Positions 7,227 through 45,666 of a stretch of DNA of 64,000 nt are shown piece by piece (the first letter of the stretch is position 1; the number at the start of each line of letters is the position of its first letter). Source of the stretch: Paramecium tetraurelia (Eukaryota); NCBI GenBank assembly GCA_000165425.1, contig CT868041.1, forward strand, positions 248,001 to 312,000, in the 5' to 3' direction. The notes under the pieces are model-generated. The model worked only from the letters and a program-made list of their open reading frames with translations. It had not been told where the DNA came from and ran no database searches. The position numbers and the translations under genes are program-made.

Positions 7227-8066
7227 TAATATTTTATTCGATAATTTAATATACACTTAGGTAATCTTAATCTCATTAATTCATAAAAAAAGATTAAATA
7301 AAGTCACCAAACGAATTCGAACCAATCCAAAGATTGATTAATTTGAATGCATCGACCATTCAGATTGCTACCAAATATCCTCATTTATTAAGTTAATTTT
7401 GGGTGTTGAAAACCCTATGATATTACACTTAAAAGACATTCATTTTAGGTAAGTAAGTAAACGGTTCAATGGTAATCAAGCTTTTAAACATAAGAGTTAT
7501 ATAAAAATAAACTATTTTTAAAAACAGAACCTGTGCTAGAGCGCGCAAGAGTTTTGAGTATCGCAAATTTCTTCCTATCTTGAATCACAGTAGAAATCGG
7601 GACCTATTCTGACTCATGTCCAAGTAGGTTAGAAGTTTATGAAGTAACTCTTTAGATGAACACAATAACTTTTGGGAATAAACCTATATCATTGAGATTT
7701 GAATGATCATTTATTTTTACGGGGAATATTTATAATTTGAGTCATTCAGAATTATGAATATTTAATTTTTTTTTTTAATTAATAATGCATTATTCATATG
7801 AGTTCTAAAATACAATTCAATTTTATTTGATATTATTAAATGAGATGAAATTTCATTAGAGTGTAGAAATTGTTAAAATATTTATATACTTTAGGTTACA
7901 TATGTTTAATTACAAAAATGAATAAGTTAAACTAATGTAATTTAGATTTCATTGTTCTTCTAATTAGATATTCTAATTAGAATAATGATGTGAAATTTAA
8001 AAGTTATGATAATAATGATAAAATATGATGATATGATTTTAAATGTAAAGATTGATAATTTGTAAA

Positions 8067-11000
8067 TCAAAGCTACCTGCTAATTTTAGATTTTGAGAAT
8101 TCGCATTATTGTTTTTCGAAATTCCATCTGCATCTTTAGTTGGTGATAGTAAGACACGCTTTCATGTTTAATCCCGGCGTAGGTGGCAAACAAGCAATTG
8201 AATCAGTAGGTTAAACTTTGACACAAAAGTGCTGTTTAGAATCATAATAGACAGGTTCTGTGTTGACAAGAGCACAAGCATTAACATTGGCAAGCGCATG
8301 AGTTTGAGGTGTAACAATAGAATCAGATTCAGGTATGGAAATGCATAGCCCATTGAGCCATTTACAATTTTAATTCAGAGTGGTGATAGACAGACAGGAT
8401 AAATAACTGAGATTTTAATTGCAAAGAGTGATTTTATCATCGACAAAAGAAGCACAAGTGCCAAATTGAACAGGTATAGGTTAAGAAGTCTTGAGCTTTT
8501 TGATTTGAACAGTTTCAACTTTCCAATAGCACTTGGTAGTAGCCTAACTGACACAAGCTACTTTATTGATGTTATCTAGACATAGAGGGGAGTCATGGAA
8601 GTAAGAGGAACATTGGCCTTCCTTAAATTAACACATTTGTCCAGATCTTACAATATTGAGACATGCTCTCATGGATCCGAAGGCAGAAGTGATATCTGCA
8701 CATTATTCAAAGACAGTGGATTCATGATACTTGCACTGTTCATTGATCCAAATGCAGGGCAATGAGAGGACCATCTAACATTGTTCAGCAGATTGCAATT
8801 GATCACATGAAGTAGGTTCTGCTATTTAGACACAAGACTTAGTAGATAGATTGAACACACAGTTTTTGTCAGTAGATTTGATGCAAGTGAGTTTGGAAGT
8901 ATTCAGTAGAGTGCATGTAGTGATTGGATTGGTGTATTTGATACACTTGGTGCCATCCCATTGGCAATCCAGAAGATTTTACAATAGACAAGTATTCATA
9001 TCAGGAGCCTTGTTGCAACAATCAAATAAAGTGTTGTCGCACTCGAACATCGGTTAGGTTGGTCCATAACAAAAATCAGTGAATCTGCATCTTAGAGTAG
9101 GTTTGGTGTATTTGAGACAAGCGTACTCGTTTAAGCCTCTGATGCAATCCAGATTATCAGTGGGCAGAGACTCTACACATCTGTTTTGGAATTGATCATA
9201 TCGACAGGCAATGTCAGTTGGTTATTCACAGAAGTAAGGTGAATTGATATTGGTAATGTTCTCACATTCCTCATTTTTGAATTTGATTAGATCTTCTTAT
9301 TAACATTTTGATGATGAAAAACGACAATATTAGAGAGGAGTTGAAATCTATATGCATCCAAATTTATTCACTACTTTATCACAATTCAGAGTGGCTAATT
9401 CAGTTGCCAATACACAATTATTGCTATTGTCTAATTTGCATGGTTGTGCACTCACATTTGTACAATCTGCACTGCCTGAACAACTTTTTGCGGCTTCTAA
9501 ACAAAACTAATCAAATCTGCAAGAGGCCAAAGATTCACATGCTTATTTGTTTATTCCTCTTACACAAGAAGTAATAGGGTCTGAATCCAAATCGATTTAC
9601 TCGCATAATTTTGTAAATGAATTGAATTTGCAAGGCACATCATTGGCTTATTCACAATATTCTTATTGATTTACATAACCGATACTCTCACAGGATTTCA
9701 CTGTGATATCTTTTGGCAAAATAAATTAGCATTTATAATCCTTATAAATACAATATTGAGTTGGATTAGTGATTTAAGAACAGGTAAATTGATTTACTGG
9801 TTAATCACATGTCAGATTAGCTAAGTCTTCTACATCAACTTCAACACATCCCTCAGTTGTGTAGATAACTTATTTACCATCTGTTTGATATTTCATACAT
9901 GCTAATTTGTTAAATGATATCATATTAGATTATGGCTCATTCAAATCCATGGCTGCAAGTACTGAAACGCACTTTTAAGTAACTCTGTCATATTTACAAG
10001 CTACTGACTCTGCGGCTGTGCATGTGATTGGATTTGTTGGAGTCAAATTATAACAAGAGACTACTTGAAGTGGATCGATTGCTGTACATCCATTATCAAA
10101 TTTACAATACTGTTTAGCAGTCTTAACAAACAGACATTTGTTCTCATTTGTGAAGTGTTGACAGGTTAAATTGTTTTCGTAAGTGGAAATACAAGTACTT
10201 GTAATATCATTGAATCTACAGAATTCCAAGTCTGTCTTCATGATGCATCCATATTTATTCAGTCCATTCTGAGTACAAGACAAAGTAGTAGACGCAGATA
10301 TTATGCAAGTGTAAGTAACTGAATCGAAAATGCACGCTTTTTAATCAATTAATCTACTGGAGCATGTCAATGGAGATGCTTGAATATTGGCCAAAGATAC
10401 ACAAGTTTCAGAATCCTCTACTGGTTGACATTTGTTTTAGTAGAACTTACATTTTAATTTTAATTAGACACAGGCATTCCAATTAAATGTGGGATCACAG
10501 ATCTTCGATTCATTAATAGTCTTATTACTTAAGGTTGAACATTGACCATTCACAAATTGACAAGTAGGTTTTGTCTATTTTAAACATGTTAATTCATTTA
10601 AGCCTGGGGAATTGCAAGCATAAATGAATGGTTTAGGTTGATCACCATTTAGACAGCATCCTTTGACTGAATCATAAATCAATATCAACTGTTTTCCTTC
10701 CAACTCCTTATAATATTAACAAACAGAGGGTGAATATGGGAATGTTTCCAACTTAGTAATCTAAGCAATGGTTGTGAATGCACTCACATCATAATCCTGA
10801 CATTGATTATTTGTGGACTTACAAGTCAAATTAAGACTGAAACATGCTACTAAATTGATTGGAGAACTACAAGTAACTTTACTTAAGTCAGGAATTGCTT
10901 AGCATTGTCCATCAACAAATTAACAATAACCAGTTGAGTTTAGATAACAACCTAATTTACTTAATCCTGTTGTTCCACATGTTATTTTATCTTTAATTCC

Positions 11001-14000
11001 AATCGAATTGCATTTTTGAGTTCTATCTCTAAAACAAGCAACATCTTTAATTTCTGAACATGACTTTGCATTAAATTTAATCATCTTCTTAGTTGAATCA
11101 AAGAAATTAGTACATGATGCCACTGGTTTTTTATATAGAATTGAATAACATTTTTAATCCTCTTCTGACCATCCACAAGACACTTTGGTTAAGTTTAAAC
11201 AACCAAATTTATTAGCCAAGGTGCAATCCAAACTATCTAATGAATAATCTTCACATGCATTGTCTAGCCATTGACATGATTACAAATTACTAATTATACA
11301 TGCCAACTTATTTCCATTCTATTACTTAATTAATTTGCAAGTTGAATATATATCTACCATCGAACAAAATTTAGTAGATGGAGATTTCCAACAAGAATTC
11401 GAAACTTTGGGACACCCATATGAATTTGTTAAAGAACAATCTATTAGTTTTGATACATCTGAATCACTTTATTCCACACATTATCCATTTTTCCAAGTAC
11501 AATTCTTACCAGTTGTCATACTTAAACAACCATCTTTGTTGGCATCCTAACATCCTGTTTACTGTGTCACTAATGAATTACAATAATTAGTGGTTGAATC
11601 ATAAGCATAGGATCCACCAATACAATAAATGCATGTTTGTTTAGTGACTGGCAATTAATTAAGAGATGAACAAGTAGCCTATGCTGATGCCACACATTAT
11701 TCATTTTAGAATGCACAAGGAAAATCCATTTATACGCAAGCTTGTCTTTTGACTAAACTAGACACACTCAACTTACTGATGTATTGACATTGATAAAGAT
11801 AAAAAGGAGATGTTTAATCGAAAGATGGTGATGTATACACTTGTTGGCAATATCCTAAAGTGAAATCACATCCATTAGATAGACAGGCAAGTTAACTGAA
11901 TGTTTCATTGCATTTTTTCTTTTTTGTATCTGAAGAACATTTAGCACCATCATAGTAACAATTATCACTTACTTTACTACAAACAATAGGACTCACTCTT
12001 CCTAGTCCTTCTGCATCTTTACATTTAGAAGGTGCTGTCTACTTGCACACCTATTCCTCACTATTAGGATATCCATCACAAAGATCAATCTTAGGAAATA
12101 TTATACTTGTTGAATCATCTATAATACATGGGGCATTAGGATTTCTGGACTTTAAACAATTATCACCAATGACATCTTCACATGATAAGATTTATTTTTC
12201 ATTTCCAGCAATTTCAAAACAACCTCCCATTTGAATATCAAATGCACACACAGATGATAATTATAAACATGCTCCTTTACTATATATGTTCGAGCAGTCA
12301 TCGTCGAAATCAATCACTTCCTCTTCACACCACCTTTTTATTCCCTTAGATGTATTTCCATCAGCATCTGTGATATCTACTTAGGCTTCCAACCAAGCTA
12401 AGTTTTTCAGAGACATAAGTTAACATGTAGTGGTCAATTGGTCCCATTTACAGTATTTCTCAACTCTGCATTATTGTAAGAATTCTTGATCGGGTTAACT
12501 ATCAGGATCTGGAGACTTAAAACATTGCAATGTTCCACCATACTCTGCAAATTCATAATTGATAGATGCACAGGCTATCTTATTAAATAAAAATTCATCT
12601 GATTAATCTCTTAAATCACTACATTTAGTTGAGTCTTCAACTTTAATGTATTTGCATTCATAAGTTGATTTAACAAAATAACATGCTTATGGTACTTCTG
12701 CACACATTTATAAACTGATTTAATAGGGTGAATCACAAGACGTTTGAATTCCAGTAAAAGCTTAACATCTTTTATCTGCACTCTAGGCTTTGTCAAAATA
12801 GCATTTCTACAGCATTGTACTGAATAAACAGGCATCAACATTGAGTAACATACTGCCATCACATAAGATGTTAGGTTCTAGGGGATCTTCAGGTTTTTTT
12901 TACTCCTTGTAAATATCAGCAGCTGTAATTGGACTGCACAAATAAGTAGTTGGATCATATCTGTATGGTGCTCCAAAGACTTACACACAAGCCTCAGCAT
13001 TGTACAAATTATCAGCTACTATCAATTAGGATTGATTGCTCTTCAATCTCAAGCATTTTAATTTCAGGATATCCCATTCACATGGTTAAGTAGTTATTTT
13101 TAGACATATTGCAATATTGACATTGTCCTCACACCCTAATTAAGTGAGTGGCTTATCATTTTCATAGCATAACATTTCCTTATCGTCCCATCTGCAATCT
13201 CCTTTAGTTTTAGCATAACAAGCTATTGAGTTTCCATCTGGCAAATCACAAGCATCTGATTCAGCATTCACATCTTTACACACATGCTTTTTATCATCAT
13301 ATCCACAGATTTAACCGTCTAATTTGATATTCATACATGCCAATCTACTGACAGTACCTGTAGTAGATCCAAAATACTTACACTCTACTAAGGTAGGTGC
13401 ATCTGTGCATTTATGTGTCTAATAAGAAAAGAAACAACTTGCTTTTTGGATGTTTACACAAGCAAATTCATTCAAATTTTAATCACAATATGATAGATTC
13501 TCAACATAATAGGAATCTACACTCTGGCATTTCAATTCTGATTTCGACCATCTGCAATATATTTCAGGATATTTCATTTAACAAGCATTACTATTTAACT
13601 CAGTCGATCCACAATCTGTTACATCTATGATATCTGGATCCTTCTTGCAATGTTTCCCTTCGTATCCAAAAAACAATGCAGAATTAACATCTGTTTTCAT
13701 GGCTTCAATTGCTAAACAGGCATACTTATTGAGGATGGCAGCAGCATCAGTGAATATGGCCAAATTTGGATATAAACTGTAGTTGATATTCACACATAGA
13801 TTTCCATTGAAATAACATCTTTATTGGGTTGACCACTCAATCATATGACAAGAATTCTTATTCATGTATGAACATTTTAATTGCAGTGTATTGTAATAGT
13901 CTTTTACTTATTTCTCAATCGTAATATCCACCATGTCTATTGTCAGTTCTGTGCATTTTAATTCATTACTAAAATAACAATATTGTCCTGTTGAATAACG

Positions 14001-16281
14001 GCCACAAACATGTGAATTAATACCTACAAATTCACTGCAACAAGGTGTTCCACAGATTCCTTTGAAAACTGTGCAATTACCTCCCTCATATATACAATAC
14101 CCTTTCATTTTATCTATCAATGGCCCCTTCAAAGCATCATAATCAGGTTGCTCCATCTCAATTGAAGCACACACATTAGCATTAATCAATATACTCTTCC
14201 CAGTATACGATGAATTATAATCCAAACAACTCTCATTAAATGTAACATATTAATTCGAACATCTATTCTCTCTAAACAGCCAAGAACACTTTGCACTTGC
14301 TTTGGTAATTGATCTACAAACATCAGGAGTAGGTGAACTAGTCACGCAATCAGAATTCAATAACAATTTATCAGTCTATTTTTTTACGATTGTATTGGCA
14401 GTAATAACTGTGATCTACTTGCATTACCATAAATCCTTATCGTAATAGCAACTTTTTAATTGAATTTGAGCACATGCATAAGCATTTAATCCAGGAAATG
14501 AGCATGACATGGTCTCAGTATTCAAACTATTAACACATCCCTTAGCATTTTTTTCATATCTACAGACTTCATTCCCAGCCTCTACTAAAGCACAAGTGGC
14601 TGGATTTACATATTGCATTTGTAAGCAATATATAGCCTATACGTCATTCTTATGTTTGATCTGCTAGCATTAATTGTTGTACCATCTACACAATTAGCCA
14701 GTGGTTAATACTAGTGCACAACCTATTCTATTCAATCCCATTCCTGTACATTTAATCTCATTTAACAATTAATCATTAACTAATCTACACTATTAAGAAT
14801 TAATATCATAATAGCAACCATCTTCATCAGATTTCAATATTTAAGAACAGGCTATTTGATTTGCAAATCCTAGGTCTAAGCAACTAGTCTGTTCTTATAT
14901 TATTGTAGCTGACTTGCACCCAGAACTGGTCCATTAACAAGCATTTTTTAAGATAGATACACATGCATTTAGATTTAAAAATGGAGTAGTACAAGTGTCA
15001 CTTTCAATAGTCTTTTCACATAAATGAGATCGAGGATTATACTTACATTTGACTCCTGGCTTAGATATGGCTTAGCATATATTGCCATTGAATTTGAATA
15101 AGCTATTTTCATTCTGGATTGGACAATCAATGTCTTAGTTAATAAACATCCCAACACATTCTTCCCCAGTCCATTTACAGAATTGGAATTACGTCTTTAC
15201 ATTAACACAAGCATCTTCATTCAATTCTTCACATGATATTTGACTCAATTGGACTTCATTCAACTATTCACATCTATTATTAATAAAGGTGCAATTATCA
15301 TCCTTTATTGATAAACAACTCAATCTGCTTAGTCCCAAATCATTGCATTTTTAATTGTGTATTGATGGCTTAATACAATTTCCTTCTTTAAATTAACAGT
15401 ATCCTTCTTGAGAGGCACATACACTCGGACTCACATTCACATAATCTTCGCAGGTTTTTAGATTGTCTAAAATTAGAACTTAGCACTTATTCTGTTTCCA
15501 AACACAAGTAATTTTAGAAGATACAATGGCTAAACATGAATCCTTATTGATATAGTCGTCACAACCATTATTCTTAGCACTTTCATTACATTAGTTGTTT
15601 TCAAATATACCTATATATTATGATTATAAATCTTACACTTCTATCCTTGAATTTACAGGCAAGTCTCTTTGTTCAATCCTTCAGTTTTACATCCAAGAGT
15701 GTTCACCTCCGTATCTGAGACATCTTCACATTCATAATCATTTTAGAATAAACCACTTTTGCATTTTACTCCCACAATCAAAGCACATGCACTAGGAGTT
15801 ACTGGTACGTTGTAGGCTGATTTACAATTCTACGCCTCTACGAATTAGCTTTTAATTTCTTGGCAATAAACCCCATCCCAATAACATGTCTTTCCCTTAA
15901 CATTTGCACAGGAGTTTCGATTGAATAATGATGAACATCCTAGGTTTTATAAGTAATGTTCTTTTGCCTCTATACATCTTGTTCCAAAATAACCTTAAAT
16001 ATATTTATTTGATTCTTACACTTCGCTTCGTTCCCATCTATGTTTCTGAGCTAACTCAAACAAGCCCTCTTATTCAGTTACGGACTACATCCTAAATTGG
16101 TGCTTTAGGTAGGCACACAGGCATTTTCAAATACACTAAATTGACCTACTGCTAAGACTAAATAATTACACATAATTCCATCGGTTTTACTAATGCATGA
16201 TAATGGATCCATCGGATAGTAATTGCAAAACATGCAAGCAGAACTGCAAATTAAACTGATTAAAACAATTGATTTTAGCAT
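8067..16281 (-). CDS. Giant (~2700 aa) secreted cysteine-rich repeat protein, surface/extracellular antigen-like
   Basis: Signal peptide MLKSIVLISLICSSAC. Many periodic units such as CSFPGLNAYACAQIQLKSCYYD, CGTTGLSKLGCYLNSTGYC and CxWxxxxC. Ends ..CRWNFEKQQCEFSKSKISRQL-TGA. Not every codon was checked. Confidence 0.8.
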
Positions 16282-16402
16282 TTTTTTTTTTATTAATGAA
16301 TTACTGTATCAAAATGGGAAGATTTAAGCTGAATTTTTACTTTATTTATCAATGAATTAGATAATAATACTTAAATAATAAAATTTCAAAAATTAATTTA
16401 AA

Positions 16403-27602: not shown

Positions 27603-27960
27603 TATAAATAATTAGATTATAAAAAATGGAAATAGTGTAAAACTAAATAGAACATTATAATTTTGTTCTCTTTTTTAATCCCATAATTGAGTAGAAGGAA
27701 TTAAGCAAAGTTATATGTAATTGGAGCAATAATGTGTTGAGGTCATGTTAGTGAGTTACTTCTAAGGATATTCATCTACATATGAAAATTTAGAGACTAG
27801 AGAGGAAAAGAATATTATAATGGAATAACAAATCTCTAGGAAAATATTTACAAAACAATAAAAATTACAACTAGTGCCAAAAACACTTAAGTAAATTATT
27901 ATAAAAATTTCACTTACGCCGCTCTACATCAAACATTTTTTACATTTCTTAAATTTTATT
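27603..27960. repeat. ~360 bp dispersed element, copy 1 (inverted copy at 44303-44660)
   Basis: Its reverse complement matches 44303-44660 with 3 substitutions by eye; the flanks are unrelated. Confidence 0.95.
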
Positions 27961-28391
27961 ATTATTATAATAAAATTGTGTAAATATACTAATTTTAAAG
28001 TTGATAAACTACTACTTAGATAAAGAACAAAGGAGTATTGATTCTAAACTATAATATAGTTATGAATAGATAATTTTTAGATATTTGTTTATCATTAATT
28101 TTAGGATCATCTTAACTTTGCGCTTTATAAATTTTGTTACAAATAGATTTCACACATAAATAAAACAATATTGATATGATCAACTTGAGTTCATACATTC
28201 TCTGTTATTCTAAATTATCTGCTTTATCATTAGTAAAAAAAATAATTAGTCTAAATTATTCGTAGATTAGTATGTAGGTCTGTATTCTCTTAACTAATAA
28301 TTTCTAAGACTTCTATCCTATTTTCCTATTTTCTTTTCCATAGTTCTAATGAAATATTCATGAATCACTAAAAGAGATTTCATTGTATTAA

Positions 28392-42974: not shown

Positions 42975-43352
42975 TCAATGATGATGTGATCCATGTCCCT
43001 TCTTAACATACTATAAGCCACAATATTTGCAAGTTTAAGGTGTTCCTTCAGTTCTTGTATCTAATTTGATATAAACCTAAGGATGTCCTGCATTGATATG
43101 GGTACCACCCTAAAATAAGTTATTGAATTACTAGGCATCTAACAACATCAGAATCTACTTCAATTACTGGAATTTTATGAATAAATTCTTCAGCTCTGCT
43201 TTTATGAGTTTGGAGTGAGTTCTTAATATTATTCATATTACTTTATGAGTTTCATCATAATCTAACCATTTATGTTAAGCTAAGTTAGTGTAAGATTTCA
43301 CAATCTGTGAAAACTAAGCTCTCTTTGCTAATTGCATACACTTTTGCAACAT
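42975..43352 (-). CDS. NDUFS6: NADH:ubiquinone oxidoreductase 13 kDa zinc-finger subunit
   Basis: AEEFIHKIPVIEVDSDVVRCLGG..GHPQVYIKLD..CKYCGLQY, two micro-introns, and a mitochondrial-presequence-like N-terminus. Confidence 0.93.
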
Positions 43353-43409
43353 TTATAATTATATATATATATAAATGCAATTAATTTTAGTTAGTTTCAA
43401 TTTATACTA

Positions 43410-44056
43410 TTAGTCATTTATTTTTTTATAATCACTAGATTTATTTATGATGATCTACTTATTTTTGAGATCATCCAAATCAGCTTGTAGATCCATCACT
43501 TCCTCCTTTTTTATGGAACTCCCTTTAATTGTATTAAATAGATATCTTGCTTATTTTATTCTATAAACTTACTTTTCCAAATACATACATCATCAATATT
43601 AAATATTTCTATTTATCTTCTACATTAGCAATCGAATCTTCCAATTATGCATAAAGTTCGGAAATATAATGATTAGAATCATCTATTTCTTTATCTTTTT
43701 CACTTAACTATATTTATCATACCCATCTATTTTATGCTATTTTGTTTTTATTTTCTCTTACAATTATTACATTTCCTCATACAAAACTTTTATTGTATTA
43801 ATTAACTGTTAAATCAAACTATATGCTAAAGATAATTCACTCTTTTCATCTTAACCCTATTTTTTCTACTGTTATGTTTATAAAATATTAATTCTATTTT
43901 GCAGCTCCTACACTTTCATTTTTAATAAGGTTGATGCACTATTGGTTGAATTTAAAATGGATTTTGAGAAACTACTTTAATTGTTGGCTATGAAATTTAT
44001 TAAAATTATGTTGAAAATCCTACTCCATACGAAGTTTAAGGAATTTATTATCTCAT
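43410..44056 (-). pseudogene. Coiled-coil coding-like stretch, possibly frameshifted or degenerate
   Basis: Segments read KMKVQELQNRINILQ.. and ..EEVMDLQADLDDLKNKQ, but I could not join the start, body and stop into one clean model. Confidence 0.35.
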
Positions 44057-44302: not shown

Positions 44303-44660
44303 AATAAAATTTAAGAAATGTAAAAAATGTTTGAGGTAGAGCGGCGTAAGTGAAATTTTTATAATAATTTACTTAAGTGTTTTTGGCACTAGTTGTAATT
44401 TTTATTGTTTTGTAAATATTTTCCTAGAGATTTGTTATTCCATTATAATATTCTTTTCCTCTCTAGTCTCTAAATTTTCATATGTAGATGAATATCCTTA
44501 GAAGTAACTCACTAACATGACCTCAACACATTATTGCTCCAATTACATATAACTTTGCTTAATTCCTTCTACTCAATTATGGGATTAAAAAAGAGAACAA
44601 AATTATAATGTTTTATTTATTTTTACACTATTTCCATTTTTTATAATCTAATTATTTATA
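44303..44660. repeat. ~360 bp dispersed element, copy 2 (inverted relative to 27603-27960)
   Basis: Near-identical reverse complement of 27603-27960. Confidence 0.95.
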
Positions 44661-44781: not shown

Positions 44782-45666
44782 ATGGAAGAATCGCTGTTTC
44801 ATTGTTATCATGAAATGATTCCTGTTGCCTCTTTTTCAGAATCTCCACTTCTATAAAAAGAGGAGCAAGCAATGACAGATGAAACTAATATAGAAAATCT
44901 AGTAGTTGAGAGTTAAATGATCAAATCAAATAGAATATAGCGTATATTTGATATTCAACATAAGTTAAACAAACCAAAATAAAGTTACAAAGTTGAATTG
45001 GAATTATCAATAATTTTATTGAGAGAAATGAAAATTAATAGATAATTAGAATTTGTTATGTTGATTTCAATTTTAGTTGATAGTTTGATTAGACTAAATT
45101 CTTACATATATTTATTTCTTCTATTAGTTGATAAAGAAAGTGATGGTAAAATAATGTTATATTATCTATTACTGATACCAAGATTTTACTTTTTTTTGAG
45201 TTTAATAAGAATGTTGTTCAGGAAATTGCATTTGTATAGAAACCAACCAATTTTGATGATAATAGTTTTATTTAGATAAAATTTTACGAATTTAAATATG
45301 ATTGAGGAAGCATCAAAAGAATGGTATGATTGGCGAAATGAATCATCTCAATTTAATCTCAAACAACTTTTAATTTATTTACTAACTCCTAATGAATTAT
45401 CATATTTTTTATTGAAATCATTAAAAAATGGAGTTAAAACTTATATCGTAACGAATTTTATTTTGAAAACTATAGAGATAGTCATGTTTACTCCAATTAT
45501 GCTAATACTATTAAACTTTAATGAAAAAATAATAAGCAAATAATTTTTAATTTCTAATGGCTATGAGTAATTTACTCTCGTTTTAATATATATTGATGGA
45601 ATTAAATACATATTCTTTAGTATTTTTTACTTAACAAAAAGAAACTATTAGATAAATAAAATTTGA
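44782..45666 (+). CDS. Intronless multi-pass membrane hypothetical protein (294 aa)
   Basis: A single 295-codon code-6 frame joins track ORFs 45058 and 45298 and contains several hydrophobic segments. Confidence 0.72.

What the first reader, a model, noticed from the sequence alone, without database searches (positions are those of the whole stretch)
27603..27960. ~360 bp near-identical non-genic element present twice, inverted, 16 kb apart: candidate mobile element (MITE-like or mobile promoter) retained in the somatic genome
Seen: the reverse complement of 27603-27960 matches 44303-44660 with only 3 substitutions, and the central ~270 bp are identical. The flanks are unrelated and homology ends abruptly. 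Copy 1 lies between the divergent cyclin and QTRT2 genes; copy 2 lies between a decayed minus-strand gene and a plus-strand membrane-protein gene. Each end has TAAAAAATG 17-18 nt inside the boundary (a loose terminal inverted repeat), and an imperfect hairpin (TCTAA..TTCAT-loop-ATGAA..TTAGA) lies near the centre. Established: Paramecium macronuclear DNA is largely purged of repeats and its intergenic DNA diverges quickly. Inference: a recently mobile non-autonomous element, a conserved multicopy ncRNA or regulatory module, or an IES-related element that escapes excision.
Basis: partly seen in the sequence, partly recalled or inferred. Interest (0 to 1): 0.8.

Follow-up and report, generated by a model that had tools for sequence, protein, structure and literature searches.

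The report
Vault-RNA-like gene family in Paramecium
The duplicated stretch is not a jumping element but two copies of a small structured RNA gene that resembles the vault RNAs of animals and trypanosomes, and it may supply the RNA partner of the ciliate vault and p80 proteins.

Summary
The inverted 358-bp duplicate is real (3 substitutions), but it is not a MITE. Both sites are also occupied on the genome-duplication sister contig, so neither is a new insertion. Each copy is a small RNA gene: a ciliate snRNA promoter element (USE) at -60, conserved 5' and 3' blocks pairing into a panhandle around a variable loop, then a T-run. I found 14 such genes on five contigs. Six of 14 panhandle pairs show two-sided compensatory change. 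Two short paralogues give Rfam Vault (RF00006) as best, full-length match (26.3 and 20 bits, below the 34-bit cut-off); four other members scanned, the two window copies among them, do not. The genome encodes 4 MVP-domain and 3 p80/TEP1-like TROVE genes. Best reading: a vault-RNA-like Pol III family with an external U6-type promoter and no box B, whose inverted copies are kept alike by gene conversion. Transcription and protein binding are not shown. My literature searches returned no ciliate vault RNA, but the two papers most likely to list one could not be read.

The parts
27603..27960 (+). Copy 1: homogenised tract covering promoter, RNA gene and terminator
27677..27686 (+). USE/PSE promoter element AATCCCATAA; its CCCATA core lies 60 nt upstream of the 5' block
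   Evidence: U6 genes of this genome have CCCATA at -61, -61, -65; consensus AAACCCATAA in PMC3273799
27739..27762 (+). 5' strand of the panhandle (terminal stem, GYU, bulged A, upper helix, invariant GUUACUUC); inferred transcript start near 27739
   Evidence: start inferred from USE spacing, not mapped
27763..27911 (+). Variable A-rich central loop (51% A), 147-149 nt here, about 20-30 nt in short paralogues
27912..27930 (+). 3' strand of the panhandle; the copy-1 substitution at 27928 breaks one terminal G-C pair
27936..27941 (+). T6 run, Pol III terminator-like; no T4 or longer run between it and the start
44303..44660 (-). Copy 2: homogenised tract
44577..44586 (-). USE of copy 2
44322..44524 (-). 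RNA gene of copy 2 (5' block 44524-44501, 3' block 44351-44333, T6 44327-44322), terminal stem intact
   Evidence: 18 bits, E 0.031 with model R1, which was built without the window copies but with their sister-contig homologue
7520..7663 (-). Third family member in the window, about 140 nt, middle helix altered; variant USE (CCCGTA at -59, about 7717-7726)
   Evidence: 30.4 bits, E 1.1e-5 with R1; flank matches that of the C169:238450-238567 member

Best explanation
Each copy is a gene for a small RNA polymerase III transcript of about 200 nt that works like a vault RNA. An upstream USE, as in this genome's U6 genes, sets the start about 60 nt downstream; the T-run ends the transcript. The 5' and 3' ends pair into a bulged panhandle (5-bp terminal stem, internal loop with 3' CUCU, short GCU/GGC helix, bulged A, 6-bp upper helix, unpaired ACUUC) that closes a loop free to vary in length and sequence. 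By analogy with animal and trypanosome vault RNAs the RNA is bound by the p80/TEP1-type TROVE protein and is partly loaded into MVP vaults. The two window copies are old paralogues, present before the last genome duplication, and are 99% alike because the inverted pair undergoes gene conversion. Shown: copies, synteny, USE spacing, T-run, covarying panhandle, sub-threshold Vault matches of two paralogues, presence of MVP and TROVE genes. Inferred: transcription, polymerase, RNA ends, protein binding, conversion as the cause.
For: Synteny: homologues at both sites on C169. Family: USE + GRGTTACTTC pattern gives 13 hits, 0 in the reversed control, 12 with panhandle and near T-run; a USE-free two-block pattern gives 9 hits, 0 control; with C236 and window 7520-7663 the total is 14. 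USE core at -73 to -76 from the motif in 12 of 12. Structure: RNAalifold finds the same 14 pairs unaided; 95.8% of 168 cells paired, 6 pairs with two-sided change, slid controls 31-51% (also 78). Vault: best of 4227 families and full length (model 1-99) for the C695 member, 26.3 bits, E 2.5e-4, and sole match for a C225 member, 20 bits, E 0.018; C225 members were first found by USE and synteny alone. Human vtRNA1-1 as printed in PMC10087102 (passages) has the same helix, bulged-A, GUUACUUC and GGCGCUCU layout. Partners: 4 MVP-shoulder matches, 3 TROVE matches; for the one searched, the best named animal hits are TEP1/p80-like (E 1e-59 to 3e-44), Ro60-named hits E 8e-22 or weaker. Conversion: the 140 nt upstream are 135/140 and 130/140 identical within C58 and within C169, but 57-61% between contigs; inverted triplets on C225 are 93.8% alike over 1260 bp.
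Against: Vault matched only 2 of 6 members scanned, both below the gathering score of 34; copy 1, copy 2, C169 site 1 and C169:238450 gave no Vault match at E<=10. The E-values are for about 100-base searches; rescaled by hand to one family over the genome, 2.5e-4 becomes about 0.05, and the C695 member was found with a pattern holding GTTACTTC. No internal box B in the window copies. The window copies are the least typical members: longer than the 80-140 nt quoted for vault RNAs, a U-C mismatch in the middle helix in both, a broken terminal pair in copy 1 whose duplex energy is not above background (324 of 3935 random partners as good); whole-sequence folding z is -0.79. Related sequences inflate covariation scores; on the 13-row alignment 24 of 500 shuffles reached 6 two-sided pairs. 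The 5' strand is also much like human Y4 RNA as printed in bioRxiv 10.1101/2025.03.12.642847.
Confidence: 0.78

Rival explanations
1. A Pol III panhandle RNA family that is ciliate-specific or closer to Y/stem-bulge RNAs, with the vault likeness coming from a shared ancestor or from convergence on a degenerate box A.
For: 5' strand aligns by eye with RNY4 (GGUC..AUG.UAGUG.GUUA); four of six members scanned give no Vault match; no box B.
Against: The 3' strand carries vault-type GGCRCUCU, not the UUGAC strand of the Y RNA lower stem seen in RNY4; no Y RNA or sbRNA family matched in any of 8 Rfam scans; the TROVE protein searched is TEP1/p80-like.
Confidence: 0.14
2. The family is real and vault-like, but the two window copies (copy 1 above all) are decaying or silent members preserved in likeness only by recent conversion.
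For: Broken pairs in both copies, weak duplex in copy 1, long loop, no Vault match.
Against: USE, spacing, 5' block (21-22 of 23 identical to the C169 copies while flanks are 57-61%), upper helix and T-run are intact; a G-C to G-U change keeps a pair; C169 site 2 is equally long with a perfect stem. This rival is compatible with the best explanation at family level.
Confidence: 0.2
3. Recently mobile MITE, mobile promoter or unexcised IES.
For: 99% identity, non-genic, a 9-mer in inverted position near both ends.
Against: Both sites filled on C169; family members sit in collinear blocks of C225 and C236; 9-mer not conserved; conservation is confined to promoter and pairing blocks; only two DNA-level copies.
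Confidence: 0.03
4. A short protein-coding exon or pseudogene fragment.
For: Open frames of 60-180 codons cross the element under code 6.
Against: The two conserved blocks are 20 to 160 nt apart in different members and do not keep a common frame; changes are compensatory for pairing.
Confidence: 0.02

Closest known systems
Vault RNA (Rfam RF00006; human vtRNA1-1/1-2/1-3)
   Same: Panhandle of 5' and 3' ends with internal loop, GCU/GGC helix, bulged A, upper helix, GUUACUUC and G(G)CGCUCU motifs, variable central loop, 3' U-run, clustered paralogues; host has MVP and TEP1/p80-type TROVE genes.
   Different: No internal box B; an external U6-type USE at fixed distance instead; 2-nt shorter 5' internal loop; length about 60-200 nt; 14 genes; best score 26.3 bits against a cut-off of 34.
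Trypanosomatid vault RNA (TBsRNA-10)
   Same: Recognised, per the review PMC9326685 (passages), by short 5' and 3' stretches forming a bulged terminal helix; the L. braziliensis RNA is about 190 nt, like the window copies.
   Different: There Pol III transcription and TEP1 and MVP co-precipitation were shown; here they are not. Sequences were not compared, the primary paper was not held.
Y RNA / stem-bulge RNA (Ro60 ligands)
   Same: Pol III panhandle; similar 5' strand (RNY4).
   Different: 3' strand and lower stem differ; no Rfam match; the TROVE protein searched is nearer TEP1/p80 than Ro60.
Arisong / PM01 ciliate RNAs (PMC3177221, passages)
   Same: Ciliate small RNA genes behind the same PSE/USE, multicopy in Paramecium.
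   Different: Arisong has a coaxial dumbbell, a 3' GUUC tail, a variable 5' end and a Pol II 3' box; this family has a conserved 5' end, one panhandle and a T-run.

Membership tests
Vault RNA (RF00006) | 5'/3' bulged panhandle closing a variable loop | tested here: met
Vault RNA (RF00006) | Conserved end motifs (GUUACUUC; GGCGCUSU) in register with the helices | tested here: met
   GUUACUUC invariant in 13 of 13 aligned rows; alignment to the Rfam consensus; window copies read GCCGCUCU, one change
Vault RNA (RF00006) | Score at or above the Rfam gathering threshold (34 bits) | tested here: not met
   26.3 and 20 bits for 2 of 6 members scanned; no match for the other 4
Vault RNA (RF00006) | Internal box A + box B promoter (as stated in PMC7916137 section 2.2) | tested here: not met
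   No G[AT]TCNA in 3 of 4 copies scanned, one in mid-loop of C169 site 2; the 5' block is at most a shortened box A; an external USE is present instead
Vault RNA (RF00006) | Pol III transcript ending at a T-run | tested here: inconclusive
   T-run of 5 or more follows the 3' block in all 14; USE spacing as in U6; polymerase and ends not measured
Vault RNA (RF00006) | Binding to TEP1/p80 and association with MVP vaults | not testable with these tools
   Partner genes exist; binding needs an experiment
Y RNA / sbRNA | Ro-binding lower stem with bulged C opposite UUGAC | tested here: not met
   3' strand reads CUCU(A/U)CC/CUG type in all members, unlike RNY4; the motif's role in Ro binding is recalled
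Arisong / PM01 | Coaxial dumbbell, 3' GUUC tail, Pol II 3' box | tested here: not met
MITE / mobile IES | Empty orthologous or paralogous site | tested here: not met
   both sister sites filled
MITE / mobile IES | Conserved terminal inverted repeats and target duplication | tested here: not met
   9-mer lies 17-18 nt inside, absent from C169 copies, common in the window; no matching direct repeat at the edges
MITE / mobile IES | Many copies in the germline genome | not testable with these tools
   only the somatic assembly is held

The most novel reading that the evidence does not exclude
This is the ciliate vault RNA: an unannotated family of at least 14 genes that has swapped the internal box B for the U6-type upstream promoter, spans 60-200 nt, resembles both vault and Y RNA in its 5' strand, and is the natural RNA ligand of p80, the TEP1 homologue first purified with Tetrahymena telomerase.
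Probability: 0.5. Interest if true: 0.82.

Novelty: new variant of a known kind. Interest (0 to 1): 0.7.

Why it matters
The papers I could read place vault RNAs in animals and trypanosomatids, and Daly et al. 2013 (PMC3762200, passages) call structural search the way to find them elsewhere. A family in a ciliate adds a third major lineage, supports a vault RNA as old as MVP and TEP1, and shows which features are really conserved (the panhandle and GUUACUUC, not box B). It gives a concrete candidate ligand for ciliate p80 in an organism with RNAi, tagging and natural loop variants from 20 to 150 nt, so the long-open question of what vault RNPs do becomes testable there. It is also a clean case of concerted evolution of inverted RNA genes across genome duplications.

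Tried and rejected
Expression: no RNA holder listed on record. Three runs guessed to be RNA (X17, X18, X20; two studies) show depth-4 contigs over the element, but they run 90-200 nt past the predicted start and DNA carry-over doubles at a two-copy repeat, so this was set aside as uninformative. Whole-genome search with RF00006 found 0 matches but scored only 49 of 3846 candidates, so it says nothing on absence. One search scanned the wrong stretch of L121 (upstream flank) and was redone. Metagenome scans: exact 22-mer 0 hits; USE + 13-mer 79 hits, 0 of 79 with the 3' block and none scoring with R1 at E<=0.1 (80 loci incl. L117). C114 hit (L117) dropped from the 13 pattern hits as chance: wrong USE distance, no panhandle. 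Older paralogous blocks on C679 and C693 (three 10-kb stretches) and 10 kb more of C236 held no further member. A whole-genome search with my own model was not possible, so 14 is a lower bound. Tetrahymena TtnuUkn1-7 sequences hold none of four family motifs searched (one supplement file could not be searched). Early idea that copy 2 was ancestral and copy 1 a new insertion: rejected. Selenoprotein or intron readings of the conserved blocks: rejected, no common frame. Earlier scan findings: three look-ups, nothing. Papers not held: Kolev et al. 2019 (JBC), Chen et al. 2009 (RNA), Poderycki et al. 2005.

Full report
Observation. The duplicate is as described: 27603-27960 and the reverse complement of 44303-44660 differ at 3 of 358 positions (27643, 27650, 27928). 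A DNA search of the own genome (72.1 Mb, 697 contigs; window = C58:248001-312000) returns these two places only. Public contigs support two real copies: the repeat forms one unitig at about twice flank depth in X7 (108.6 against 57, 67.7, 52.9; X7 may be the assembly's source), and X7 and X17 both hold the two different left flanks.

Not a recent insertion. Contig C169 is collinear with the window at 79-85% in genes; I take it as the sister from the latest genome duplication (inference; the duplication history is recalled). Both sites carry a diverged homologue there, in the same places and orientations. Over the 140 nt upstream of the conserved block the two C58 copies are 135/140 identical and the two C169 copies 130/140, while all four cross comparisons give 57-61%. 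So the pair is older than the duplication and has been homogenised within each contig since. The interval between the copies has the same orientation on both contigs, which fits conversion without net inversion. The proposed terminal repeat TAAAAAATG occurs 8 times in the window and in neither C169 copy.

Anatomy. What the four copies share is AATCCCATAA, a 23-nt 5' block, a 3' block and a T-run. AAACCCATAA is the ciliate snRNA/snoRNA upstream element (PMC3273799, passages and section 23). Its CCCATA core lies at -60, -60, -61, -61 from the 5' block, against -65, -61, -61 in the three U6 genes found. Three of four copies have no T4 run before the final T-run (1941 of 12762 window segments of that length are T4-free, so this alone is weak). 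The 5' and 3' blocks pair in 61 of 68 cells; duplex energies beat random partners for three copies (23, 10, 0 of 3935) but not for copy 1 (324 of 3935).

Family. A scan for the USE alone in older paralogous blocks showed more copies on C225. The pattern USE + GRGTTACTTC then gave 13 hits genome-wide with 0 in the reversed control; 12 have the panhandle and T-run, and one (C114) was dropped as chance. A USE-free pattern gave 9 hits, 0 control, adding C236. A model built from 8 members found a third member in the window at 7520-7663, 30.4 bits. Total 14: C58 x3, C169 x3, C225 x6, C236 x1, C695 x1; a lower bound. C225 holds two inverted triplets 93.8% alike over 1260 bp, a second case of homogenised inverted copies. 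RNAalifold on 8 members predicts 14 pairs, 6 with two-sided changes. On 13 rows (12 distinct; the third window member not included) 95.8% of 168 cells pair, 24 cells are two-sided changes (0 of 500 shuffles), and sliding the partners drops pairing to 31-51%; the count of two-sided pairs was reached by 24 of 500 shuffles. The terminal stem reads GAGGU/ACCUC, GCAGA/UCUGC, GUGUU/AACAC and GCGGA/UCCGU in four subfamilies.

What it resembles. The vault likeness began as a recalled lead and was then tested. Rfam Vault is the best of 4227 families, over model positions 1-99, for the C695 member (26.3 bits, E 2.5e-4) and the only match for a C225 member (20 bits, E 0.018). Both are under the 34-bit cut-off, the E-values are for about 100 bases, and four other members gave no Vault match, plausibly because long loops and the missing box B cost score (inference). 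Human vtRNA1-1 and its probing-guided structure as printed in PMC10087102 (passages) show the same order of terminal stem, internal loop, GCU/GGC helix, bulged A, upper helix and GUUACUUC, with GGCGCUCU on the 3' side. The 5' strand also resembles RNY4 (bioRxiv 10.1101/2025.03.12.642847, one passage), but the 3' strand does not. The genome has 4 MVP-shoulder matches (three P. tetraurelia MVPs in PMC3762200, passages) and 3 TROVE matches. I searched one TROVE protein: its best named animal hits are TEP1 or p80-like, Ro60-named hits are far weaker and cover half the query. TEP1 was identified through homology to Tetrahymena p80 and binds vault RNA (PMC7916137, section 2.2). Trypanosome vault RNA was recognised by the bulged terminal helix and confirmed by TEP1 and MVP pull-down (PMC9326685 and PMC12547018, passages).

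Mechanism. Most likely the USE recruits the snRNA-type factor and Pol III, the RNA starts near 27739 and ends in the T6 run, folds into the panhandle, and is bound and stabilised by the p80-like protein, with a fraction in vaults. All of that is inference from anatomy and analogy. I put a structured Pol III RNA gene family at about 0.93, vault RNA homology at about 0.78, and p80 binding at about 0.65. I do not file it as a member of RF00006, since box B and the score threshold were tested and not met; it works like a vault RNA. The window copies are the least canonical members and copy 1 may be decaying.

Novelty. Searches (vault RNA + Paramecium, 3 papers) listed no paper describing a ciliate vault RNA (listings and, for the papers named above, passages only; 85 and 94 were loose and showed only the top 25 of 1424 and 15 of 5409). 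Arisong/PM01 differs in structure (PMC3177221, passages). Kolev et al. 2019 and Chen et al. 2009 were not held; the first, as I recall, aligns predicted vault RNAs from other eukaryotes, and the second lists conserved structured motifs in Paramecium, so either, or its supplement, may already contain these loci. Verdict: new variant of a known kind, interest 0.7.

Noticed in passing
window 7520-7663 (-): Third member of the same RNA family, with a variant USE and an altered middle helix; syntenic with the C169:238450-238567 member.
   Followed up: yes
L016 4210-5520 and L141 about 830-2100 (C225:153.7-155.0 kb and 159.8-161.1 kb): Two tandem triplets of the gene, 460-bp period, in inverted orientation and 93.8% alike over 1260 bp.
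   Followed up: partly
L014 3246-4106 (-); remnant at window 28135-28220: A RimK-like ATP-grasp gene (PF08443) lies between the element and QTRT2 on C169 and has been deleted from the window's contig, leaving its 3' end.
   Followed up: partly
window 44782-45663 (+): 294-aa hydrophobic ORF with no Pfam match, absent from the syntenic site on C169; its start lies about 200 nt from the USE of copy 2.
   Followed up: partly
window 43233-44030 (-): Coiled-coil gene with deletions relative to its C169 sister; looks like a decaying duplicate.
   Followed up: partly
window 26550 (+), 32295 (+), 49635 (-), 54625 (-): Other USE-like 10-mers; 32295 is a perfect AAACCCATAA. They may mark further small RNA genes or be chance.
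   Followed up: no
window 7322-16373: The two flanks of the C169 member (L118) match the window 9 kb apart, so this block differs between the sister contigs right beside the third member.
   Followed up: no
G000:C695 74648-75001 and 107783-107896: An MVP gene and the most vault-like family member lie 33 kb apart on one contig; may be chance.
   Followed up: no
L017 3465-3549 (C236): Family member with a variant USE (CCCGTA) and a broken upper-helix pair; possibly degenerate.
   Followed up: partly
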